Virus record (IMG/VR): IMGVR_UViG_2547132127_000011
Length of the DNA stretch: 16,794 bases
Origin: a virus
Lineage: Duplodnaviria; Heunggongvirae; Uroviricota; Caudoviricetes
Direction: 5' to 3' (one strand)
The notes under the pieces: generated by a model
Database searches by the model: none
What the model was told of the DNA's origin: nothing
Seen by the model: the letters and a program-made list of their open reading frames with translations, nothing else
Made by a program: the position numbers and the translations under genes
Part shown: piece by piece, positions 1-16,794 of the stretch
Numbering within the stretch: position 1 is the stretch's first letter
Layout of the letters: the number at the start of each line of letters is the position of its first letter

Positions 1-1230
1 ATGAGCAGAGCACTTAACAAACTGAGCGATACACAGCTGAGGAAAATCAACGGCACACCCGCCCAAAAAACAGCCTTTCTTAATGACGGTGGAAACCTGA
101 GCGTCAGGCATTCAACCAGTGGCCTTTTAACCTGGTATTTCACTTACAGGGCCGGAACGGGAAGGGGGGCACCACCGGAACGCATTAAGCTGGGAAATTA
201 TCCTGATCTGAGCCTGAAATCAGCCAGGGAAAAAGCCGCCCAGTGTCGCGCATGGCTGGCAGAGGGGAAAAATCCACGTCATGAGCTTAATTACACCGTA
301 CAGGAAGCGTTAAAGCCGGTAACGGTTGGCAATGCGCTCACCTACTGGCTTGAGTCGTACGCAAAGGAAAACCGCGTGGATTATGCCGCCCTGAAAAAGC
401 GCCTTAATAATCACGTAATACAGCACATTGGTGCTATGCCGCTGGATAAATGCGAGCTACGGCACTGGCTGGCCTGTTTTGACCAGGTGGCAAAGCGAAC
501 GCCTGTTACTGCCGGATTCTTGCTACAGACGTGCAAACAGGCGCTTAAGTTCTGCCGGAGGCGGCGCTATGCAATCAGCAACGTTCTTGATGATATGAGT
601 GTGGCGGACGTTGGGAAAAAACCGGATATAAGCGAGCGTGTCTTAAGCACCAAAGAACTGGGCGAATTATTGCAGGCACTGGACAAAAAAATATTCTCCC
701 CCTACTACATCGCGTTAATCCGCCTCCTGATTGTGTTCGGATGCCGGACGGTAGAACTGAGGTTATCGGAGATCAGCGAGTGGGATTTTACCGAAATGCT
801 CTGGACCGTGCCGAAAGAACACAGCAAAACGAAGGTGGCAATATTCCGGCCCATACCGGAAGCAATACTGCCGTTCGTCACGCAGCTGGTGGAGCAGAAC
901 AGGCACACGGGCTTATTGCTGGGGGAAGTGAAACAGGAAACAAGCGTGTCGCAGTACGGCAGATTAGCGCACAGGAGGCTAAATCACCCTCACTGGTCAC
1001 TACATGACATCCGGCGCACCTTTACAACGATGCTGAACGATTTAGGCGTGGATCCTCACGTCGTGGAGCAGCTTACAGGCCACCAGATGCCAGGAATGCA
1101 GCGAGTTTATAATCATTCCCGTTATCTGGATGCTAAACGCAATGCGCTGGATATGTGGACGGAGCGGTTAGGGATACTGGCGGGAACACATGAAAACGTA
1201 ACCACGCTACCAGTAGCCAGAAGAAAATAA
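1..1230 (+). CDS. int: Tyrosine recombinase / integrase, P4-like
   Basis: 409-aa ORF with C-terminal catalytic region (HDIRRTFTT...LTGHQ...VYNHSRY) typical of the phage integrase family; N-terminal region resembles P4-type integrases. ORF starts at window position 1, so the true start and the left attachment site lie at or beyond the window edge. Confidence 0.88.
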   Translation: MSRALNKLSDTQLRKINGTPAQKTAFLNDGGNLSVRHSTSGLLTWYFTYRAGTGRGAPPERIKLGNYPDLSLKSAREKAAQCRAWLAEGKNPRHELNYTVQEALKPVTVGNALTYWLESYAKENRVDYAALKKRLNNHVIQHIGAMPLDKCELRHWLACFDQVAKRTPVTAGFLLQTCKQALKFCRRRRYAISNVLDDMSVADVGKKPDISERVLSTKELGELLQALDKKIFSPYYIALIRLLIVFGCRTVELRLSEISEWDFTEMLWTVPKEHSKTKVAIFRPIPEAILPFVTQLVEQNRHTGLLLGEVKQETSVSQYGRLAHRRLNHPHWSLHDIRRTFTTMLNDLGVDPHVVEQLTGHQMPGMQRVYNHSRYLDAKRNALDMWTERLGILAGTHENVTTLPVARRK

Positions 1231-1285
1231 TTTTTTTCGTGTTTTTTCAGTATGCGCATACTGGATATGCGAACAGATACAACGT

Positions 1286-1325
1286 GCAACAATGAGCAAC
1301 AATGCGGAACAACTACGAACAAGAG
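1286..1325. promoter_or_regulatory. Four tandem 10-bp units each with AACAA core (GCAACAATGA GCAACAATGC GGAACAACTA CGAACAAGAG); candidate protein-binding array
   Basis: Read directly: AACAA at 1288, 1298, 1308 and 1318, exactly one helical turn apart. Its reverse complement (TTGTTCGTAG TTGTTCCGCA ...) closely matches the array at 6982..7010. Confidence 0.4.
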
Positions 1326-1419
1326 GTGAAAAAGTGTACAGATTTATAAGTAGCTGATTTTTAATGTGTTACTGATTTTTTATACACTAGCGAATCACTC
1401 TTTAAATAGCGAGAAAAAA

Positions 1420-1451
1420 GGCATGAAACAATATTTCATGCCTTTGTATTA
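1420..1451. terminator. Hairpin GGCATGAAA-caatat-TTTCATGCC flanked by A-run upstream and T-rich tract downstream; candidate bidirectional intrinsic terminator
   Basis: Perfect 9-bp inverted repeat with 6-nt loop followed by TTTGTATT; about 190 bp downstream of the int stop. Confidence 0.45.
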
Positions 1452-1604
1452 ACGTGAATTTAAAGGATTTTATCCTGATTATTCCTCTTTCTGTAAACCA
1501 TACGGCCTCAACATTTGCCAACTCTGAATCATCCTGACACAATCAGACACATCCCAACGCAATAGAACACGAAATAACTCTTTAAGAAACGAAAGGGGGC
1601 AATA

Positions 1605-1793
1605 GTGTTAAGCACTGATCGGTTTATACGTGAAAAAGAATGCGAAAAGCTAACAGGCCTTAGCCGCTCATGCCGCTACCGCCTGGAAAAGGCCGGACAA
1701 TTCCCATCACGTCGTAAACTTGGCGGTCGTTCCGTTGGCTGGTCTTTATCCGAGGTTCTGGCCTGGAAGGATAGCTGCAAGGCAGTTCATTAA
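1605..1793 (+). CDS. alpA: AlpA-family transcriptional regulator (prophage CP4-57 regulatory protein family)
   Basis: 62-aa ORF, GTG start preceded by AGGGGG; motif LTGLSRS..YRL...G.FP....LGGRSVGW..SEV..W is the AlpA helix-turn-helix signature; sits immediately downstream of int as in P4-like elements and PICIs. Confidence 0.8.
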   Translation: MLSTDRFIREKECEKLTGLSRSCRYRLEKAGQFPSRRKLGGRSVGWSLSEVLAWKDSCKAVH

Positions 1794-1937
1794 TCACGCT
1801 GGCGGCACGCAGCCGCCACACATCAATCATCTGAACACAGAGCTATAACCATGAAGATTGAATATACGCCAGAACGTGGGCGGGGATTCGTTCGCCCTGG
1901 TGAAACTGGAAAACCACAAAATTGGGGTTTTTCAGGC

Positions 1938-1965
1938 ATAAAAAAAGCGGCCCCGAAATGGAGCC
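1938..1965 (-). terminator. Candidate intrinsic terminator for leftward transcription
   Basis: On the minus strand: GCGGCTCC-ATTTC-GGGGCCGC stem-loop followed by TTTTTTT. On the plus strand the same hairpin is followed only by CTTTCT. Confidence 0.35.
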
Positions 1966-2296
1966 GCCTTTCTGAACAGATAACCCGCTGCGCCGTTTGT
2001 GTGTGTGATCCCAAACATAAGCACGGGGATGATAGCCGCTATCAGGCTGGTGGGCAATGCAATCAGTCTGGTTCAGTGCGTTGCCATAACTGCGAAGTTC
2101 TCTCCTTTGATGAGTATTCTTTAAGGTACTTCTCAAGGGCAAAAGAACACGGCGCGAATCGTTCTGATTCATGCTCTTTCTTTCTGCGTCGTCTTTTTCG
2201 TGCAGGTGATGTTTTTTCGGTTGATTCTTCGTTGGTCATTGTGTGCGCCTGTAAAGCAATGCGCCGTAGTACCTCACACCACGGCGCTGATAGTTT

Positions 2297-2476
2297 TTAT
2301 CCTTTGGGTTCTATGCCGCGTTGCTGTAATTCTTTGCGGATTATTCGCTTTATCCAGGCAGCAAGAGAATCATCGCCGTCCTGTTGTTGTGCCTTTTCCA
2401 TCTTTTCCCGTAAGTCAGGATCTAAACGGAACTGGAACGGAGGATTACCACGCCTTTCGTTTTTGTGTGTTGACAC
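2297..2476 (-). CDS. Putative ribbon-helix-helix (Arc/MetJ/CopG-like) DNA-binding protein, 59 aa, GTG start
   Basis: Not in the ORF track (below length cutoff). Translation VSTHKNERRGNPPFQFRLDPDLREKMEKAQQQDGDDSLAAWIKRIIRKELQQRGIEPKG shows a beta-strand (PFQFRL) then helix-turn-helix pattern like Arc repressor (PQFNLRWPREVLDLVRKVAEENGRSVNSEIYQRVM). GAGGTG lies 8 nt upstream of the GTG. Confidence 0.45.
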   Translation of the reverse strand: MSTHKNERRGNPPFQFRLDPDLREKMEKAQQQDGDDSLAAWIKRIIRKELQQRGIEPKG

Positions 2477-2499
2477 GTTAATTACACCTCAGGTAATGT
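2470..2499 (+). promoter_or_regulatory. Candidate sigma-70 promoter (TTGACA - 18 bp - TAATGT) for the rightward small-gene/primase operon, overlapping the start of the divergent RHH gene
   Basis: TTGACA at 2470..2475 and TAATGT at 2494..2499; flanked by TGTGT/ACACA dyads (e.g. GTAATGT...ACATTAC 2493..2523) that could be operator sites. Confidence 0.3.
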
Positions 2500-2605
2500 A
2501 TTTATGTGTAGTGACACATTACACACAATCAACACAAAAAGCAAAGCCCCGCACTGTAGGAGCAGTAACGGGGCTTCTAACCAACAACGTAAACTAGGAG
2601 CCGTT

Positions 2606-2806
2606 ATGGTTGCCGTAAATCATATACCACACCTTGTACACACACAAACGGCCTTTGTGTGGCGTTTTCTGGCACTGAGTGCCGGAGAATCCCAAATCAT
2701 CCACGTAACCGCTTGGACGGAACGCGAAGCGCGTAGCCGTTGCCCGTCCGGTTGTGTTGCTGTATTCGCCGCCCGTATTCGTCAGGGGGAAACCTATGCA
2801 CAATAA
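2606..2806 (+). CDS. Hypothetical small protein (66 aa)
   Basis: Internal ATG of track ORF 2504..2806 with AGGAG 5 nt upstream; first gene of a translationally coupled chain ending in the primase. Confidence 0.5.
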   Translation: MVAVNHIPHLVHTQTAFVWRFLALSAGESQIIHVTAWTEREARSRCPSGCVAVFAARIRQGETYAQ

Positions 2807-3017
2807 AACCACACCGAACGCAGCAGCCGCCGCACTCACTACGCTGATGCACGCGCTTATTGATATTGAATGCACGGCAGAGCTTGCGCAGGGAGAAGAA
2901 CAGAAAGACCGGACACAGTTCGCCCTGGAATGTATCCGATACATCGCAACGCGGTCACTGAATGACGCTAAAAATATTCTTGTTGCCGATTGTGAAAATG
3001 GGGGGGGTTATGCGTGA
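2796..3017 (+). CDS. Hypothetical small protein (73 aa)
   Basis: ATG at 2796 preceded by GGGGGA; overlaps the stop of the preceding gene by 11 nt (coupling). Confidence 0.45.
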   Translation: MHNKTTPNAAAAALTTLMHALIDIECTAELAQGEEQKDRTQFALECIRYIATRSLNDAKNILVADCENGGGYA

Positions 3018-3162
3018 TGATCGTTTTAATTCCCTGAAACAGGAATTTTCCGGCGTTCCTGATGATGCGGCTGATGCGCTTTCGTCAATGCCAGAACTTA
3101 TTAGAGCGGCTTTTTTCTTACTTTCCACGAGAGAATATAAATCAACGGGCTTGATGTACTGA
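3010..3162 (+). CDS. Hypothetical small protein (50 aa)
   Basis: ATG at 3010 overlapping the upstream stop (ATGCGTGA), G-rich tract upstream; internal start of track ORF 2962..3162. Confidence 0.4.
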   Translation: MRDDRFNSLKQEFSGVPDDAADALSSMPELIRAAFFLLSTREYKSTGLMY

Positions 3163-3231
3163 ATATCGCCGCCGATTATGCTGATTTCGTGACAGAGGTT
3201 ATTTTAAGAAAAACGACGGACGGGGATTAAT

Positions 3232-3465
3232 ATGCGTGATATTTACCACGAAACAATAGACCGCGCATTTCTTGCACTTTCTCACAGTGAAAACATGCTG
3301 GAAATATTGCGCATATGGCTTGAAACACTTGGCGACAATGAACGCGACAAACAAAAATCAAGAATTGCCACGGCATTAATAACGCTTCTTGAGCCTGTAA
3401 TAATGGAACTGCAAGAAATAGATCTATTGCACGACAGATATAAAGAACAGCACACCGGAGAATAA
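3232..3465 (+). CDS. Hypothetical protein (77 aa)
   Basis: ORF track; same orientation and operon context; acidic/helical composition. Confidence 0.5.
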   Translation: MRDIYHETIDRAFLALSHSENMLEILRIWLETLGDNERDKQKSRIATALITLLEPVIMELQEIDLLHDRYKEQHTGE

Positions 3466-3470
3466 AAATA

Positions 3471-3770
3471 ATGAAACTTAAATATTCTGGCTTAACTGCC
3501 AGTGGCAACACTCACCCTAAATTTACGCGCGGTGATATTTACCGCGACCAGTACGGCGGCATGGTAACGATTAAAGGCGTGGCAGAACGGCGCATCACCT
3601 ACCGCCGTGAAGGTTACGAATATGATTGCGTGATGCCTGTTTATCAATTCCGGCGTGATTTCACGCTGGTACAGGCAGCGCCCCGCAGTAAACCAACCAG
3701 CAGGGAGAAAGCACGCGCCAATATTCAGGAAATAAAAAAGATGCTTAACGTATTCAGGGGTAAAAAATGA
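3471..3770 (+). CDS. Hypothetical protein (99 aa)
   Basis: ORF track; GGAG about 11 nt upstream; stop overlaps the primase start (ATGA). Confidence 0.55.
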   Translation: MKLKYSGLTASGNTHPKFTRGDIYRDQYGGMVTIKGVAERRITYRREGYEYDCVMPVYQFRRDFTLVQAAPRSKPTSREKARANIQEIKKMLNVFRGKK

Positions 3771-5515
3771 AACTGGCACCGAACGTAAAAAAACAGCCAC
3801 GCGGAATAAAACACAAAGACACAGAGGTAATTATCTTTGCGGGTAGTGATGCCTGGTCGCACGCGAAACAATGGCAGGAGCAGGATGGCCCCGCATCCGG
3901 CGATAATGTGCCGCCTGTGTGGTTTGGGCCAAATCAGCTTGCCGAACTTGATGCACTGAAGATTGTTCCGGATGGAAAAAAACGCGTAAGGCTGTACCAG
4001 GCCGGAGAACTGGATTTGGTGGAGACCAAAAAGATTGGTCAGAAGCTGGCGGCGGCAGATATTCAGGACGCAAATTTTTACCCCGAAGGAATGCACGTCC
4101 AGAAGTGTGAAAACTGGCGGCGCTATCTGAATGCTGAGCGTGAAAATATTGCCGCAGGGCTTACCATGCCGGAGCAGAAAAATACGCAACTGGCACAAAT
4201 GGCAGACAGTGAGCGCGCGCAGCTGCTTGCCGAGCGCTTTGATGGCGTTTGTGTGCATCAGGAAAGTGAAATCGTTCACGTATGGCGCGGCGGGGTATGG
4301 TGTCCGGTCAGCACAATGGAACTTAGCCGCGAAATGGTGGCGATCTATTCAGAGCACAGGGCCACTTTCAGCAAGCGCGTAATCAATAACGCCGTGGAAG
4401 CGTTAAAAGTTATTGCCGAACCAATGGGCGAGCCGTCCGGCGATTTGCTGCCGTTCGCCAATGGTGCGCTTGACCTGAAAACGGGGGAATTTTCCCCGCA
4501 CACGCCGGAGAACTGGATCACCACGCACAACGGCATTGAGTACACGCCACCAGCACCAGGGGAGAACATCCGCGATAACGCGCTAAACTTTCATAAATGG
4601 CTTGAGCACGCAGCCGGAAAAGACCAGCGCAAGATGATGCGTATATGTGCCGCGCTGTACATGATTATGGTGAACCGGTACGACTGGCAGATGTTTATTG
4701 AGGCCACCGGAGACGGCGGGAGCGGTAAAAGTACATTCACACACATAGCCAGCCTTCTGGCAGGGAAACAGAACACGGTAAGCGCTGAAATGACATCGCT
4801 TGATGATGCTGGTGGACGTGCGCAGGTTGTCGGGAGTCGTCTTATCGTCCTGGCTGACCAGCCGAAATATACAGGCGAAGGAACGGGCATCAAGAAAATC
4901 ACGGGCGGTGACCCCGTGGAAATTAACCCGAAATACGAAAAGCGTTTCACGGCTGTAATCAGGGCGGTGGTGCTGGCGACCAACAATAACCCGATGATAT
5001 TCACCGAACGGGCCGGAGGTGTGGCACGTCGTCGCGTGATTTTCCGTTTCGACAATATCGTTAGTGAGGCCGAAAAAGACAGGGAGCTACCGGAAAAGAT
5101 TGCGGCTGAAATCCCTGTCATTATCCGCCGATTGCTGGCGAACTTTACCGACTCTGAGAAAGCACGGGCTTTACTACTGGAACAGCGTGACGGTGATGAA
5201 GCTCTGGCAATAAAGCAACAGACGGATCCGGTTATTGAGTTTTGCCAGTTCCTGAATTTTCTGGAGGAAGCACGCGGCCTGATGATGGGCGGCGGTGGCG
5301 ATTCAGTGAAGTACACGACCAGAAACAGCCTTTACCGCGTCTATCTGGCGTTTATGGCGTACGCAGGCAGGAGCAAACCGCTAAACGTAAATGACTTTGG
5401 CAAGGCTATGAAGCCAGCCGCGAAAGTTTACGGACATGAATATATTACGCGGAAAGTTAAGGGAGTAACGCAGACTAACGCAATAACAACAGACGAGTGC
5501 GACGCGTTTTTATAA
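3767..5515 (+). CDS. Replication protein: P4-family primase C-terminal / D5-N / SF3 helicase-type P-loop NTPase (PICI pri-rep-like)
   Basis: 582-aa ORF with Walker A TGDGGSGKST, a Walker B-like hydrophobic run (RLIVLADQP), and downstream KKITGGDPVEINPKYEKRF...RRRVIFRF block characteristic of the phage/plasmid primase P4-family C-terminal domain. Confidence 0.85.
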   Translation: MKLAPNVKKQPRGIKHKDTEVIIFAGSDAWSHAKQWQEQDGPASGDNVPPVWFGPNQLAELDALKIVPDGKKRVRLYQAGELDLVETKKIGQKLAAADIQDANFYPEGMHVQKCENWRRYLNAERENIAAGLTMPEQKNTQLAQMADSERAQLLAERFDGVCVHQESEIVHVWRGGVWCPVSTMELSREMVAIYSEHRATFSKRVINNAVEALKVIAEPMGEPSGDLLPFANGALDLKTGEFSPHTPENWITTHNGIEYTPPAPGENIRDNALNFHKWLEHAAGKDQRKMMRICAALYMIMVNRYDWQMFIEATGDGGSGKSTFTHIASLLAGKQNTVSAEMTSLDDAGGRAQVVGSRLIVLADQPKYTGEGTGIKKITGGDPVEINPKYEKRFTAVIRAVVLATNNNPMIFTERAGGVARRRVIFRFDNIVSEAEKDRELPEKIAAEIPVIIRRLLANFTDSEKARALLLEQRDGDEALAIKQQTDPVIEFCQFLNFLEEARGLMMGGGGDSVKYTTRNSLYRVYLAFMAYAGRSKPLNVNDFGKAMKPAAKVYGHEYITRKVKGVTQTNAITTDECDAFL

Positions 5516-5803: not shown

Positions 5804-6082
5804 ATGCACACTTCAGGGAAATTTAATAAATCATTCAAAAAACGCAGAGACAGAACAGAACCGAAATATCGCGCGTTAGACATGACAGAGCACGCTTTAA
5901 AGGTGGCAATCAGAACGATAGACCGCCACGCGGGGGAAGGATACGCGAAAGCACATCCCGAACTGATAAGCGCATTCATGACCACGACGGCGGCAAATTT
6001 TGCCACGCTGACAGAGCGGGAGATTGCCGAAGCGGAACAGGTAACAACAATCAACGTTAAAACCGGAGAGGTGGAATCATGA
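5804..6082 (+). CDS. Hypothetical protein (92 aa)
   Basis: ORF track; GAGGGGG upstream; first gene after the iteron region. Confidence 0.5.
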   Translation: MHTSGKFNKSFKKRRDRTEPKYRALDMTEHALKVAIRTIDRHAGEGYAKAHPELISAFMTTTAANFATLTEREIAEAEQVTTINVKTGEVES

Positions 6083-6384
6083 GCGAACCAAAATTTGGTG
6101 AAAAATTTTACAAGCACAACGGACGGATCACGATTCTGCAAATAAGCGCAGCTACACCAGGCTGGTGGGTTGAAACAGACGAAGGATCCTCACCCGTGGC
6201 ATCATGGGCGCTTTGTGTGCTTAGTTACCCTGACCGCGATGTGTATCAGGATATTCTGCCTGTGATATCCACTGACAAAGGCATGAAACCCGTAGACATC
6301 AAAAAAATGGGGTTTCAGTGCGTAATGCTCACTGAAAAAATGATGGAAGAGATGAAAAAGAACAATGCCGGATCGCTTCACTGA
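6079..6384 (+). CDS. Hypothetical protein (101 aa)
   Basis: ORF track; start overlaps the upstream stop (ATGA coupling). Confidence 0.55.
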   Translation: MSEPKFGEKFYKHNGRITILQISAATPGWWVETDEGSSPVASWALCVLSYPDRDVYQDILPVISTDKGMKPVDIKKMGFQCVMLTEKMMEEMKKNNAGSLH

Positions 6385-6393
6385 GGTGGCAAT

Positions 6394-6555
6394 ATGACAG
6401 CACAAATTGCAGCTTACGGGCGGCTGGTGGGCGACCCGCTGGTAAAACAGAGCAGCAAGGGCACACCGGAGCCGCCAACGGAGAACTACGCAGACCTGAG
6501 AAATGCAGTAAATCGCACTTACGCAGACATGGGGCTGAGCAAATTAGCAGAGTAG
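6394..6555 (+). CDS. Hypothetical small protein (53 aa)
   Basis: Not in ORF track (short). ATG at 6394 with GAGGTG 5 nt upstream; translation MTAQIAAYGRLVGDPLVKQSSKGTPEPPTENYADLRNAVNRTYADMGLSKLAE; followed by the terminator at 6579. Confidence 0.4.
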   Translation: MTAQIAAYGRLVGDPLVKQSSKGTPEPPTENYADLRNAVNRTYADMGLSKLAE

Positions 6556-6578
6556 GAATATCAGAACCACACCACGCA

Positions 6579-6601
6579 GCCGGAGCAATCCGGCTTTTTT
6601 T
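6579..6601 (+). terminator. Intrinsic terminator GCCGGA-GCAA-TCCGGC + T7 (copy 1)
   Basis: Perfect 6-bp stem, tetraloop, run of 7 T; read directly. Confidence 0.65.
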
Positions 6602-6696
6602 GCGTCATTTGAAACGGTATGGAGCACTACTGGCTTTTCGTCACGGCCCGGCATAGTTACTATCTGAAACAAACAGACACAACAGAGGAAAACGCA

Positions 6697-6921
6697 ATGC
6701 CGATGAAATTTGATGAGATACTTAAACAGCGTGATAAATACCATGCTGACAACATGGAGACGATGAATATCACTGATTACCGCGCATTTCTGGAAACGGG
6801 GGCGCTGATTGAAAAGGATCATCATGGTTTTGTTCGTTGCGCGCTATCCGGTGAAATGCTGGCAGTAAATCCTGAACAGACAGATGCATTGATAGAATTT
6901 CTGAAAGGGATCAGAGACTGA
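6697..6921 (+). CDS. Hypothetical protein (74 aa)
   Basis: Internal ATG of track ORF 6619..6921 with GAGGA 7 nt upstream; sits between two copies of the same terminator hairpin. Confidence 0.5.
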   Translation: MPMKFDEILKQRDKYHADNMETMNITDYRAFLETGALIEKDHHGFVRCALSGEMLAVNPEQTDALIEFLKGIRD

Positions 6922-7233: not shown

Positions 7234-7248
7234 GGTAATGACTCCAAC

Positions 7249-15333: not shown

Positions 15334-16794
15334 TTATTCATCTTTCGGCGCAGAATGCTGGCGACCAAAAATCACCTCCATCCGCGCACCGCCCAGCATG
15401 CTCTCTCCGGCGACGATTTTACCCTCATATTGCTCGGTGATTTCGCGGGCTACCGCCAACCCTACACCTTGCCCAGGGCGTAAAGTATCAACCCGTTGAC
15501 CACGGTCGAAAATGACCTCTCGCTTGCTTAATGGAATACCGGGGCCATCATCCTCGACCACAATATAGAGATGCTCGTCGGTTTGCCTTGCAGAAATTTC
15601 GACAAACTCGAGGCAATATTTACAGGCATTATCCAGCACGTTGCCCATCACCTCGACAAAATCGTTCTGCTCACCGACAAAGCTGATCTCTGGCGAAATA
15701 TCGAGAGAGATATTGACCCCTTTGCGTTGATACACTTTGTTCAGCGCTGAGGTGAGATTGTCCAGCAGTGGGGCGACCGGATGCAGCTCGCGGCTGAGCA
15801 ATGTCCCGCCGCGCATACTGGCACGATGCAGGTAGTAGCCAATTTGCTGTGAAATGCGGCTGATTTGCTCCAGCATTACCGGCTCAGCATCACTGACGCT
15901 CATCTTTTCACTACGCAGAGAACGCAGCGTACTTTGCAGCACCGCCAGTGGCGTTTTCAGACTATGGGTCAGGTCGGTGAGCGTCGTACGGTATTTGTCG
16001 TAACGTTCGCGTTCACTTTTTAACAATCGGTTCAGGTTTCGTACCAGACTGGTCAGTTCTCGCGTTGTGGCTGGATTGAGCAATTCGCGGTTATGTTCTT
16101 CCAGTTCGCGGACTTCTTTTGCCAGGGCTTCGATGGGGCGTAAACTCCACCAGGCGGCGACCCACAGCAGCGGGATCACTAACAGCAGATTGGCTGAGAG
16201 CACATAGATAAACCAGCTCCAGACCATATAGGAACTTTTTAGCTCCACCGGAATGGTATCCACCACCACAATGGTTAATTTTGGCATCCGCGATGTTGCC
16301 GGGTAGACGTTTACCGCCACCGAGTGGGTCATCTCCGCGTCGTCATCATCTTCCCGCACTTCCTGCAACTGTTGCTGTATCGAATGATCTCCACTCAGCA
16401 AGAGGCTGGTATCGTTAACATCCGCTTCAATTTCATGAAAACCATTCGATTTCAGCCAGTCAGGCTGGATCATTTTCATCAGCCAGGGCACGTCACGTTG
16501 CGCCCATAAAAGCTGCCCGTTCTCATCATAAATTAGCGTCATGGTGGGGCTTTGCTTGTCGATATTTTCGGGTAACTCGACATGCAACTTATTGTTTTCC
16601 CACTGCGCAAGGGTATAGAACAGATTGCTCTCGCCACGTAACAGCCGAAACGTAGTTTTATCGAAACTGACGCTATAACCGATCAGCGCGACCATTCCGT
16701 AGGCAAGCGAAAGCACCAGTACTACCGCTGCCGTTGCCAACAGAAAACGTACCCGCAGCGAGAGCGGGAAAAAAAGACGCAGTAATTTTTTCAT
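15334..16794 (-). CDS. phoQ: Sensor histidine kinase PhoQ (PhoP/PhoQ two-component system)
   Basis: 486-aa ORF whose translation ([63 protein letters not shown]...EDDDDAE...[17 protein letters not shown]...) I recognise as E. coli PhoQ, with periplasmic acidic patch, H-box and ATP-binding motifs; complete gene, start codon at the window end. Confidence 0.97.

What the first reader, a model, noticed from the sequence alone, without database searches (positions are those of the whole stretch)
2606..3770. Five translationally coupled small genes (50-99 aa) upstream of the primase
Start and stop codons overlap serially (2796/2806, 3010/3017, 3767/3770), so these are made stoichiometrically with the replication protein. 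None carries a signature I recognise. In PICIs and P4-like satellites this position holds regulators, helper-interference factors and anti-phage cargo.
Basis: partly seen in the sequence, partly recalled or inferred. Interest (0 to 1): 0.45.

Follow-up and report, generated by a model that had tools for sequence, protein, structure and literature searches.

The report
Early operon of a decayed satellite
The five small reading frames are the conserved early operon of a decaying phage satellite in a Shigella-type chromosome: two belong to known families, two are halves of one gene joined or split by a variable run of G's, so most of it is ordinary.

Summary
The reading frames and overlaps at 2796/2806, 3010/3017 and 3767/3770 are real, but "five unrecognisable genes" is not accurate. 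The window is a Shigella flexneri-type copy of the OI-51/CP-933C (capsid-forming PICI) island beside phoQ. It is decayed: an IS1 removes the capsid start codon and the capsid gene carries a nonsense codon.

- **Gene 1** is an Icd-like protein, related to the P1 Icd FtsZ inhibitor and to the C-terminal domain of the P4 Eta/Kil frame.
- **Gene 5** is an orthologue of RgdR (DUF4222), the characterised EHEC OI-51 regulator.
- **Genes 2 and 3** are the N and C modules of one protein family. The modules meet at a G tract, G8 here.
  - G7 or G10 gives one 144-154 aa protein, as in O157:H7.
  - G8 or G9 gives two overlapping genes, as in EcCICFT073 and Nissle.
  - Tract length is already randomised between elements that differ at 1-4 of 800 flanking bases.
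  - Both modules stay intact, and the C module keeps its own start codon.
- **Gene 3 in this window** is also truncated by a 1-base deletion at 3147-3149, which leaves a 69-base out-of-frame remnant.
- **Gene 4** remains uncharacterised.

I found no defence-system matches. The operon is ordinary for this satellite family; the G-tract fission/fusion is the only fresh point.

The parts
2546..2579 (-). Conserved hairpin in the leader of the operon. With its A-rich 5' flank on the + strand it reads as an intrinsic terminator on the minus strand. It may end a short RNA antisense to the ribosome-binding site of gene 1.
   Evidence: Terminator-like site on the minus strand. Fold z-score -3.45 for 2500-2625. 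The stem is kept with changed loops and compensatory changes in 22 sequence variants. Homology between islands begins just upstream of it. No transcript evidence.
2606..2806 (+). Gene 1: Icd-like small protein (66 aa), first gene of the operon. Its stop overlaps the start of gene 2 by 11 nt.
   Evidence: NF033153 phage_ICD_like, 64.6 bits against a cut-off of 25. 41% identity over 46 aa to P1 Icd residues 8-50, E 1e-7. The same domain lies at residues 85-132 of the P4 'cI 137 aa'/Eta-Kil frame. SD TAGGAG plus ATG are conserved across variants.
2796..3017 (+). Gene 2: N module (73 aa) of the N/C protein. It ends ...ENGGGYA* just after the G tract.
   Evidence: phrog_2512 positions 1-76 and phrog_5146. 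Two residues different from the EcCICFT073 N gene. The exact sequence is on at least 1000 contigs. pN/pS 0.31-0.38 in split alleles.
3000..3007 (+). G8 homopolymer. It is the junction of the N and C modules and the likely Shine-Dalgarno for the C module. Its length decides between one fused protein (G7, G10) and two overlapping ORFs (G8, G9).
3010..3162 (+). Gene 3: C module, truncated here to 50 aa (73-79 aa in relatives).
   Evidence: phrog_2512 positions 78-126 and phrog_24341. Identical to the EcCICFT073 C gene up to ...KSTGL, then MY*. Among the loci surveyed, the 50-aa form occurs only in the window and one IMG/VR contig. S. flexneri SFBU1023 matches the window across this stretch without gaps.
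3147..3149 (+). GGG where relatives have GGGG. This 1-base deletion shifts the frame of the C module.
3159..3230 (+). Out-of-frame remnant of the 3' end of the C module (reads LDVLNIAADYADFVTEVILRKTTDGD*). Its stop lies 1 nt before the gene 4 start, as in intact relatives.
   Evidence: Three-frame translation. Comparison with EcCICFT073.
3232..3465 (+). Gene 4: 77-aa protein of unknown function.
   Evidence: phrog_2196, E 8e-42, 'unknown function'. No significant Pfam, NCBIfam, PADLOC or PDB match. Detected in 65 of the 80 related loci surveyed.
3471..3770 (+). Gene 5: RgdR orthologue (DUF4222, 99 aa, RGD at 20-22). Its stop overlaps the primase start (ATGA).
3767..5515 (+). P4-family primase/helicase, the replication gene that closes the operon.
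   Evidence: D5_N, DUF5906, Pox_D5 and TIGR01613. 39.5% identity over 438 aa to P4 alpha.

Best explanation
**What it is.** The interval is the promoter-proximal half of the early operon of a capsid-forming phage-inducible chromosomal island of the OI-51/CP-933C/EcCIEDL933 kind. Its left half is shared with EcCICFT073. The copy sits beside phoQ in a Shigella flexneri-type chromosome and is decaying.

**What it encodes (shown by sequence comparison).**
- An Icd-like protein.
- A two-module helical protein whose modules meet at a G tract.
- A 77-aa protein of unknown function.
- RgdR.
- A P4-type primase.

**How it most likely works (inferred).**
1. When the island is induced, the operon is transcribed as one message. 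In this family the trigger is helper-dependent expression of AlpA.
2. The Icd-like protein transiently blocks host division through FtsZ, as P1 Icd does. Its translation helps expression of what follows, as in P1 icd-ant.
3. RgdR is a small beta-barrel with a basic helix. It acts as a non-sequence-specific transcription cofactor.
4. The primase replicates the island.

**The G tract.**
- It is a mutational hot spot lying in a flexible linker.
- It also serves as the ribosome-binding site of the C module. The N and C modules are therefore made either as one chain (G7, G10) or as two coupled chains (G8, G9).
- Both arrangements occur in satellites shown experimentally to be mobile.

**This window.** The arrangement is the split one (G8). 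The C module has additionally lost its conserved last helix to a frameshift, in keeping with the decay of the rest of the island.
For: **Identity of the island.**
- It carries integrase, AlpA, primase, capsid, protease, portal, HNH and TerL, with phoQ alongside.
- It is 99.84% identical to S. flexneri SFBU1023.
- OI-51 lies between ycdF and phoQ (PMC3378721).
- The module list matches the cf-PICI criteria (10.1101/2025.02.11.637232).

**Decay.**
- IS1 at 7234-8001 sits on the capsid start codon.
- TGG has become TGA at 8824-8826.

**Gene 1.** P1 Icd binds FtsZ and its core is residues 12-51 (PMC11897509). P1 icd overlaps ant1 and is annotated as needed for ant expression.

**Gene 5.** See, plus PMC3378721 (99 aa, RGD 20-22, non-specific DNA binding, LEE1 activation).

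**N/C gene.**
- Both halves hit phrog_2512.
- Fused 144/145-aa proteins carry GG or GGG at the junction (62 and 45 of 120 clusters).
- IMG/VR scan anchored on the tract: G7 23, G8 34, G9 19, G10 4.
- Scan anchored away from the tract: G7 23, G8 22, G9 14, G10 4, G11 1. It also found 5 interrupted 8-nt tracts locked in the split frame, and 8 loci where the C gene stands alone behind a G6 Shine-Dalgarno.
- The C frame from its own ATG is intact (73-79 aa) in almost all loci, whatever the tract length.
- pN/pS is 0.3-0.4 for most N and C classes, split or fused (one small fused-N class of 4 loci gives 0.55).
- Loci with identical flanks share the tract length (11/11 pairs). Loci differing at 1-4 of 800 flanking bases share it in only 2/16 pairs, against a random expectation of 0.32.
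- O157:H7 has G7 and a 154-aa gene. CFT073 and Nissle have G8 and two 73-aa genes.
- AF2 places a low-confidence linker at residues 65-96 between two helical modules.

**Operon.** Gene order is conserved in about 80 loci.
Against: - No expression data for any of these genes was available in this element.
- The functions of the N, C and gene 4 products are unknown.
- Icd-like activity on FtsZ is extrapolated from 41% identity over 46 residues.
- RgdR's regulatory targets known from EHEC (LEE) are absent from Shigella.
- The fused-protein model is poor (pLDDT 52), so the 'flexible linker' is only weakly supported.
- In complete E. coli genomes the in-frame G7 state predominates: about 342 genomes against about 123 for G8 and 18 for G9, after subtracting the control. 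That could mean the fused form is preferred, although O157:H7 clones probably inflate the count.
- Tract length is uniform across at least 1000 S. flexneri contigs, so switching is not fast.
Confidence: 0.75

Rival explanations
1. Genes 2 and 3 are simply a pseudogene. On this view one 144-aa gene was broken by slippage in the G tract and then by a second frameshift, and the split ORFs make nothing useful.
For: RefSeq annotates the G9 copy in one E. coli as 'hypothetical protein, frameshifted'. Fused forms are common and are the most frequent state in complete E. coli genomes. The window's island is visibly decaying, and its C module does carry a second, rare frameshift.
Against: - Split states are as frequent as fused ones in the unbiased IMG/VR sample.
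- Five alleles are locked in the split frame by a G-to-T change.
- The C gene also exists alone behind a G6 Shine-Dalgarno.
- N and C frames remain intact, with pN/pS about 0.3-0.4, in split alleles.
- The experimentally mobile EcCICFT073 carries the G8 split state (PMC6092414).
Confidence: 0.12
2. The G tract is a true contingency locus. On this view reversible slippage toggles the satellite between a fused and a split (or off) state with different phenotypes, for example different helper specificity or interference.
For: A pure G7-G12 tract is maintained across alleles whose N modules are only about 45-50% identical. Length is randomised at 0.1-0.5% flank divergence. All four N-type by C-type combinations exist.
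Against: - The state is uniform within identical-flank groups and across at least 1000 S. flexneri contigs, so switching is much slower than in classical contingency loci.
- In-frame alleles are 27 of 69 (39%) in the sample (G7 23 + G10 4; out of frame: G8 22, G9 14, G11 1, plus 5 interrupted 8-nt tracts). That is close to the one-third expected without selection.
- The C module keeps its own start codon, so there is no clean off state.
- No phenotype is known.
Confidence: 0.12
3. Fused protein is produced from G8 or G9 alleles by programmed ribosomal frameshifting or transcriptional slippage on the G run.
For: A run of 8-9 identical bases at the junction of two frames is the kind of site where slippage occurs. 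G9 would need a -1 shift on G GGG GGG.
Against: No stimulatory structure lies downstream: the fold of 2990-3090 has z-score -0.09. G8 would need a +1 shift. All tract lengths coexist, which is not expected for a tuned recoding site. The C module has its own ATG.
Confidence: 0.04
4. One reading: five independent, unrecognised small genes, made in fixed ratio with the primase, that are candidate helper-interference or anti-phage cargo.
For: The frames are compact and overlapping. Three products (N, C, gene 4) have no known function.
Against: Two products belong to named families. Two are halves of one gene family. There are no PADLOC hits. The cassette is core and syntenic, not variable cargo. 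The replicase partner is interchangeable.
Confidence: 0.05

Closest known systems
EcCICFT073 / EcCIEDL933 (Gram-negative PICI and capsid-forming PICI; OI-51 = CP-933C of EHEC O157:H7)
   Same: - Same insertion site beside phoQ.
- Same order: int, alpA, divergent small RHH-like gene, Icd-like, N, C, gene 4, DUF4222, replicase.
- In the cf-PICI form, this is followed by capsid, protease, portal, connectors, HNH, TerS and TerL.
- N, C (up to the frameshift), gene 4 and RgdR are near-identical to the CFT073 proteins.
   Different: - The window lacks the 76-aa gene found between Icd-like and N in CFT073, Nissle and O157.
- Its C gene is frameshifted.
- Its capsid gene is inactivated by IS1 and by a nonsense codon.
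- O157:H7 has the fused G7 form and a RepA helicase instead of a primase.
RgdR (ECs1581) of EHEC OI-51, DUF4222
   Same: 99 aa, with RGD at 20-22, K35 and the conserved core 20-68. It occupies the same position, immediately upstream of and overlapping the replication gene of the same island family (PMC3378721).
   Different: The host here has no LEE, so the described phenotype (LEE1 activation) cannot apply. Its role for the satellite itself has not been described.
P1 Icd and the icd-ant operon; the P4 Eta/Kil frame
   Same: - The Icd-like domain is shared.
- It is the first gene of an early operon and overlaps the next gene.
- P4 has the same overall order: vis/alpA, Icd-like domain, small genes, alpha primase.
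   Different: - No C4/CI-type antisense RNA or a1b1 target is detectable in the window, whereas P4 scores 75 bits for C4.
- The P4 epsilon (PF25738) and cnr (DUF5375) families are absent.
- P4's Icd-like domain is fused to an Ash domain.
Homopolymeric-tract (simple sequence repeat) phase variation in bacteria
   Same: A pure G7-G12 run inside coding sequence, whose length differs between very close relatives and changes the reading frame.
   Different: The downstream module keeps its own start codon, so the change is fusion versus fission, not on versus off. Switching appears slow, because the state is fixed within lineages. No phenotype is known. The full-text search that was run found no report of this.

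Membership tests
Icd-like proteins (NCBIfam NF033153; P1 Icd) | Match to the family model above its curated cut-off | tested here: met
   64.6 bits against a cut-off of 25, E 6e-18, residues 17-60
Icd-like proteins (NCBIfam NF033153; P1 Icd) | Similarity to P1 Icd across the FtsZ-inhibiting core (residues 12-51) | tested here: met
   41% identity over 46 aa, P1 residues 8-50, E 1e-7. Core defined in PMC11897509.
Icd-like proteins (NCBIfam NF033153; P1 Icd) | Inhibits cell division by binding FtsZ | not testable with these tools
   Needs expression and two-hybrid or pull-down assays
Icd-like proteins (NCBIfam NF033153; P1 Icd) | Controlled by an upstream C4/CI-type antisense RNA, as in P1 and P4 | tested here: not met
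   No C4, c4-a1b1 or isrK match in the window even at E up to 5. P4 as positive control gives C4 at 74.9 bits.
RgdR / DUF4222 | Pfam DUF4222 domain | tested here: met
   85.2 bits against a cut-off of 27, full-length domain 1-53
RgdR / DUF4222 | 99 aa with an RGD motif at residues 20-22 and K35 | tested here: met
   Read from the translation. Criteria from PMC3378721 and PMC10877973.
RgdR / DUF4222 | Encoded on an OI-51/CP-933C-like island at the phoQ site | tested here: met
   phoQ at 15334-16794. Related islands at the same site. Site given in PMC3378721.
RgdR / DUF4222 | Activates LEE1/type III secretion and represses motility | not testable with these tools
   Experimental phenotype. The LEE is not a feature of Shigella (own knowledge).
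Capsid-forming PICI | [quoted passage not shown] | tested here: met
   Criteria from 10.1101/2025.02.11.637232. TerS and the connectors are inferred from the RM6927 annotation.
Capsid-forming PICI | Intact capsid gene, that is, able to form its own capsids | tested here: not met
   IS1 replaces the start codon, and TGG has become TGA at 8824-8826
P4 left (alpha) operon | Vis/AlpA, an Icd-like domain and an alpha-type primase, in this order | tested here: met
   AlpA 47% identity to P4 ORF88. Primase 39.5% identity over 438 aa. Icd-like domain present in P4.
P4 left (alpha) operon | epsilon (Derepression, PF25738) and cnr (DUF5375) | tested here: not met
   Neither family matches any window product. 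Both match the P4 proteins. RgdR against P4 ORF151 gives only 12.5% hhalign probability.
Simple-sequence-repeat phase-variable (contingency) locus | Homopolymer inside coding sequence whose length varies between close relatives and shifts the frame | tested here: met
Simple-sequence-repeat phase-variable (contingency) locus | High-frequency reversible switching within a clone, with an on/off phenotype | tested here: inconclusive
   The state is uniform in identical-flank groups and in at least 1000 S. flexneri contigs. This argues against very fast switching. No population sequencing or phenotype was available.

The most novel reading that the evidence does not exclude
The G tract is a selected switch. 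By slippage the satellite population keeps both a fused N-C protein and separate N and C proteins. These would have different activities towards helper phages or the host. That would make this an E. coli/Shigella mobile-element gene governed by a homopolymer fission/fusion switch and not by a plain on/off switch.
Probability: 0.12. Interest if true: 0.6.

Novelty: new member of a known kind. Interest (0 to 1): 0.32.

Why it matters
The result mainly tidies annotation.
- A stretch that looks like five anonymous genes is the core early operon shared by EcCICFT073-type and EcCIEDL933-type satellites.
- One of its products is a probable FtsZ inhibitor. Another is the RgdR regulator already tied to EHEC virulence.
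- In this Shigella copy the island is decaying.

The one observation that may be new is that a gene in this operon is repeatedly fused and split at a G tract. Both states occur in satellites known to be mobile. If the two states differ in function, that would be a simple and testable source of heterogeneity in satellite-helper interactions. If they do not, it is a clear natural example that the two modules work equally well as one chain or two. It would also explain why annotation pipelines call this locus one gene, two genes or a pseudogene.

Tried and rejected
- **Rfam, gathering and permissive thresholds:** nothing credible in 1200-3900. The best hits were terminator-like matches at E 0.4-0.8.
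- **tRNA scan:** none.
- **PADLOC:** no hits for any small product.
- **PDB sequence searches** with the N/C profile, the RgdR profile, gene 1 and gene 4: nothing significant.
- **AlphaFold model of the fused N/C protein:** too poor (pLDDT 52) to justify a fold search.
- **RgdR model against viral predicted structures:** only generic small beta-barrels such as DUF1653.
- **N module as a relative of P4 epsilon:** rejected (no PF25738 match; BLAST E 0.3).
- **RgdR as a relative of P4 Cnr:** rejected (different family, DUF5375).
- **RgdR against the P4 ORF151 N-terminus:** suggestive but inconclusive.
- **tblastn of gene 1 against the phage collection:** a single 16.5-kb 'induced prophage' record.
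- **Sequencing error as the cause of the G8 state:** rejected, because the exact N protein recurs on at least 1000 contigs and identical-flank loci agree.
- **The long + strand ORF 1851-2597 (248 aa):** considered and set aside as probably not a gene. It overlaps the minus-strand RHH-like gene, and relatives annotate the region only as a partial Icd-like pseudogene.
- **The first conservation profile around the tract:** discounted, because the loci had been collected with a pattern that included the tract. It was repeated with loci found through patterns elsewhere in the protein.
Full report
**Observation**

The + strand carries five compact reading frames: 2606-2806, 2796-3017, 3010-3162, 3232-3465 and 3471-3770. 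A 582-aa reading frame follows at 3767-5515. G-rich Shine-Dalgarno-like motifs precede four of the five small-gene starts and the primase start. Gene 5 has only a distant GGAG (read). The last frame is a P4-family primase/helicase: D5_N, DUF5906, Pox_D5 and TIGR01613, with 39.5% identity over 438 aa to P4 alpha.

**Context**

The window carries the following, in order:
- a tyrosine integrase (1-1230) and AlpA (1605-1793);
- a divergent RHH-like gene (2297-2476, minus strand);
- the small-gene operon and the primase;
- an IS1 (transposase ORF 7249-7752, minus strand);
- a major capsid gene in two pieces, prohead protease, portal, HNH and large terminase;
- phoQ.

This is the layout of the capsid-forming PICIs (criteria in 10.1101/2025.02.11.637232). 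It is also the layout of O-island 51 / CP-933C of EHEC O157:H7, which lies between ycdF and phoQ (PMC3378721).

The window is 99.84% identical over 6.9 kb to Shigella flexneri SFBU1023. That strain lacks only the 768-bp IS1. All five small proteins are on record from S. flexneri.

The island is decaying. The IS1 (7234-8001, flanked by a 9-bp duplication) sits on the capsid start codon. A TGG-to-TGA change at 8824-8826 truncates the capsid, and the same change is present in SFBU1023.

**Gene 1**

- It matches NCBIfam NF033153 (Icd-like) at 64.6 bits against a cut-off of 25.
- It aligns with P1 Icd at 41% identity over 46 residues, E 1e-7. The aligned region covers the part of P1 Icd (residues 12-51) that is sufficient to inhibit division and bind FtsZ (PMC11897509).
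- The same domain occupies residues 85-132 of the P4 frame historically annotated 'cI, 137 aa'. That frame is the Eta/Kil region (PMC10111431 describes its regulatory role).
- In P1, icd overlaps ant1 and is annotated as required for ant expression. A first-gene Icd-like frame coupled to what follows therefore has a known precedent.
- Unlike P1 and P4, the window has no C4/CI-type RNA (P4 positive control).

**Gene 5**

- It is a full-length DUF4222 protein.
- By length (99 aa), RGD motif at 20-22, K35 and genomic position it is an orthologue of RgdR (ECs1581). RgdR is the OI-51 regulator that activates LEE1 and type III secretion, represses motility and binds DNA without specificity (PMC3378721, PMC10877973).
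- An AlphaFold model gives a confident core (residues 20-68, pLDDT 83-89) forming a small beta-barrel, followed by a C-terminal helix.
- DUF4222 directly precedes and overlaps the replication gene whether that gene is a primase or a RepA-type helicase.

**Genes 2 and 3**

Both match one PHROG family, phrog_2512, at profile positions 1-76 and 78-126. Translating all frames shows three things:
- The N frame stops just after a G8 run (3000-3007).
- The C frame starts at the ATG two bases after the run.
- The last 24 codons of the C frame lie in a third frame at 3159-3230, because GGGG has become GGG at 3147-3149.

*Fused and split forms in relatives*
- A reconstructed fused protein finds 389 relatives. 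Many are 144 or 145 aa and differ by GG versus GGG at the junction (62 and 45 of the 120 clusters listed). These correspond to G7 and G10.
- A pattern scan of IMG/VR gave G7 23, G8 34, G9 19 and G10 4.
- That scan required the tract, so I repeated it with loci found through peptide patterns elsewhere in the protein. The result was G7 23, G8 22, G9 14, G10 4 and G11 1. There were also five alleles with an interrupted 8-nt tract (GGGGTGGG, GGGGGTGG), which are locked in the split frame. In eight loci the C gene stands alone behind a G6 Shine-Dalgarno.

*Counts in complete E. coli genomes*

I searched exact 62-65-mers carrying each tract length, plus a G13 control to measure the background of partial matches.

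| Tract in query | Genomes in the >=99% identity band | After subtracting the control (128) |
|---|---|---|
| G7 | 470 | about 342 |
| G8 | 251 | about 123 |
| G9 | 146 | about 18 |
| G10 | 129 | about 1 (at least 3 are listed individually) |
| G13 (control) | 128 | background |

G11 and G12 alleles also exist. The G7 excess is probably inflated by the many O157:H7 genomes (inference).

*Evidence that both modules are kept*
- The C frame read from its own ATG is intact (73-79 aa) in nearly all loci, whatever the tract length.
- The N frame is intact up to the tract.
- pN/pS is 0.3-0.4 for most N and C classes, in split and in fused alleles (one small fused-N class of 4 loci gives 0.55).
- All four combinations of N type and C type occur.

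*Rate of change*
- Loci with identical 800-nt flanks always share the tract length (11/11 pairs).
- Loci differing at 1-4 flanking bases share it in only 2/16 pairs, against a random expectation of 0.32.
- The tract therefore changes much faster than point substitutions accumulate. It does not change so fast that lineages are heterogeneous: the exact G8-specific N protein is on at least 1000 contigs.

*States in characterised satellites*
- O157:H7, the lineage of the experimentally active EcCIEDL933, has G7 and one 154-aa gene.
- CFT073, host of the transferable EcCICFT073 (PMC6092414), and Nissle 1917 have G8 and two 73-aa genes with the same 8-nt overlap as the window.

*Structure and recoding*
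- The structure model of the fused protein is poor (pLDDT 52). It is all-helical, with its least confident stretch at 65-96 around the junction.
- No frameshift-stimulating structure follows the tract.

*Reading*

I conclude that N and C are two modules that work either as one chain or as two coupled chains. The G run serves both as linker codons and as the ribosome-binding site of the C module. In the window the C module is additionally damaged. The 50-aa form lacks a stretch containing eight invariant residues. Among the loci surveyed it occurs only in the window and one IMG/VR contig. S. flexneri SFBU1023 is identical to the window across this stretch, with no gaps.

**Gene 4**

Gene 4 belongs to phrog_2196, a family of unknown function. 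It has no other significant matches. tblastn detected it in 65 of the 80 related loci surveyed.

**Operon as a whole**

The order Icd-like, N, C, (gene 4), DUF4222, replicase is conserved in about 80 loci, while the replicase itself varies from 35% to 99% identity. Some relatives carry one or more extra small genes. The architecture parallels the P4 left operon: vis, Icd-like domain, epsilon, ORF151, cnr, alpha. However, the epsilon and cnr families are absent here. In EcCICFT073, AlpA activates expression of the island genes and is itself induced by helper phages (PMC6092414). I infer the same trigger for this operon.

**Leader region**

A hairpin at 2546-2579 is conserved across 22 sequence variants, with different loops and compensatory changes. 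It is always preceded by an A-rich stretch on the + strand, so it reads as an intrinsic terminator for the minus strand. A leftward RNA ending there would be antisense to the ribosome-binding site of gene 1. I could not identify its promoter with any confidence.

**Verdict**

- It is unsupported on two others: stoichiometry with the primase, and anti-phage cargo.
- Most of the finding is already catalogued biology.
- The G-tract fission/fusion of the N/C gene is a modest observation that appears to be unreported. One full-text search found nothing on it.

Noticed in passing
window 7234-8001: A 768-bp IS1 insertion, absent from S. flexneri SFBU1023 and flanked by a 9-bp target duplication. It sits on the start codon of the island's major capsid gene.
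   Followed up: yes
window 8824-8826: An in-frame TGA where E. coli RM6927 has TGG splits the capsid gene into the 8050-8826 and 8827-9156 ORFs. The same stop is present in S. flexneri SFBU1023.
   Followed up: yes
window 2546-2579 (and about 2580-2626): Conserved leader hairpin with an A-rich 5' side, which reads as a minus-strand intrinsic terminator. A TATGAT-like hexamer on the minus strand at 2619-2624 could drive a roughly 70-nt RNA antisense to the gene 1 start. No promoter-scan support and no transcript data.
   Followed up: partly
window 1941-2476, minus strand: An RHH-like (YlcI/YnfO, Arc-like) 59-aa gene at 2297-2476 is divergent from the operon. A terminator-like hairpin follows at 2261-2287, then a basic 58-aa ORF at 2063-2239 and a strong bidirectional terminator-like hairpin near 1941-1975. 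CFT073 has the same pair of minus-strand genes. This is a possible repressor module of the island.
   Followed up: partly
window 1851-2597, + strand: A 248-aa ORF of odd composition overlaps the minus-strand genes. RefSeq annotates the matching region of relatives as a partial 'Icd-like' pseudogene, and some loci carry a second copy of the hairpin plus the Icd 5' segment. It is probably a remnant and not a gene.
   Followed up: partly
window 2990-3040 and related loci L002-L161: The roughly 48 nt around the G tract are the most conserved DNA of the N/C gene, and all four N-type by C-type combinations exist. This suggests the junction also acts as a recombination joint between allelic modules. 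Part of the apparent conservation comes from how the loci were collected.
   Followed up: partly
E. coli complete genomes (H41, H42): Alleles with G11 and G12 tracts exist, judging from the spans matched to a G13 control query.
   Followed up: no
window 3471-3770 versus P4 ORF151 (L162 7440-7895): The RgdR core (residues 19-67) aligns weakly with the N-terminus of P4 ORF151 (BLAST 29% identity over 48 aa; hhalign probability 12.5%). This is a possible distant relationship between DUF4222 and a P4 gene of unknown function.
   Followed up: partly
CFT073 L165 3286-3516; Nissle L083 2592-2822; O157 L082 2592-2804: Relatives carry an extra 70-76 aa gene between the Icd-like gene and the N module. 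It is missing from the window, where the Icd-like stop directly overlaps the N start by the same 11 nt.
   Followed up: partly
window 5804-6921: Three further small ORFs lie downstream of the primase (phrog_1231, phrog_27268, phrog_1957). Relatives annotate an SSB and a PerC-family regulator at this position. The window's versions were not compared in detail.
   Followed up: no
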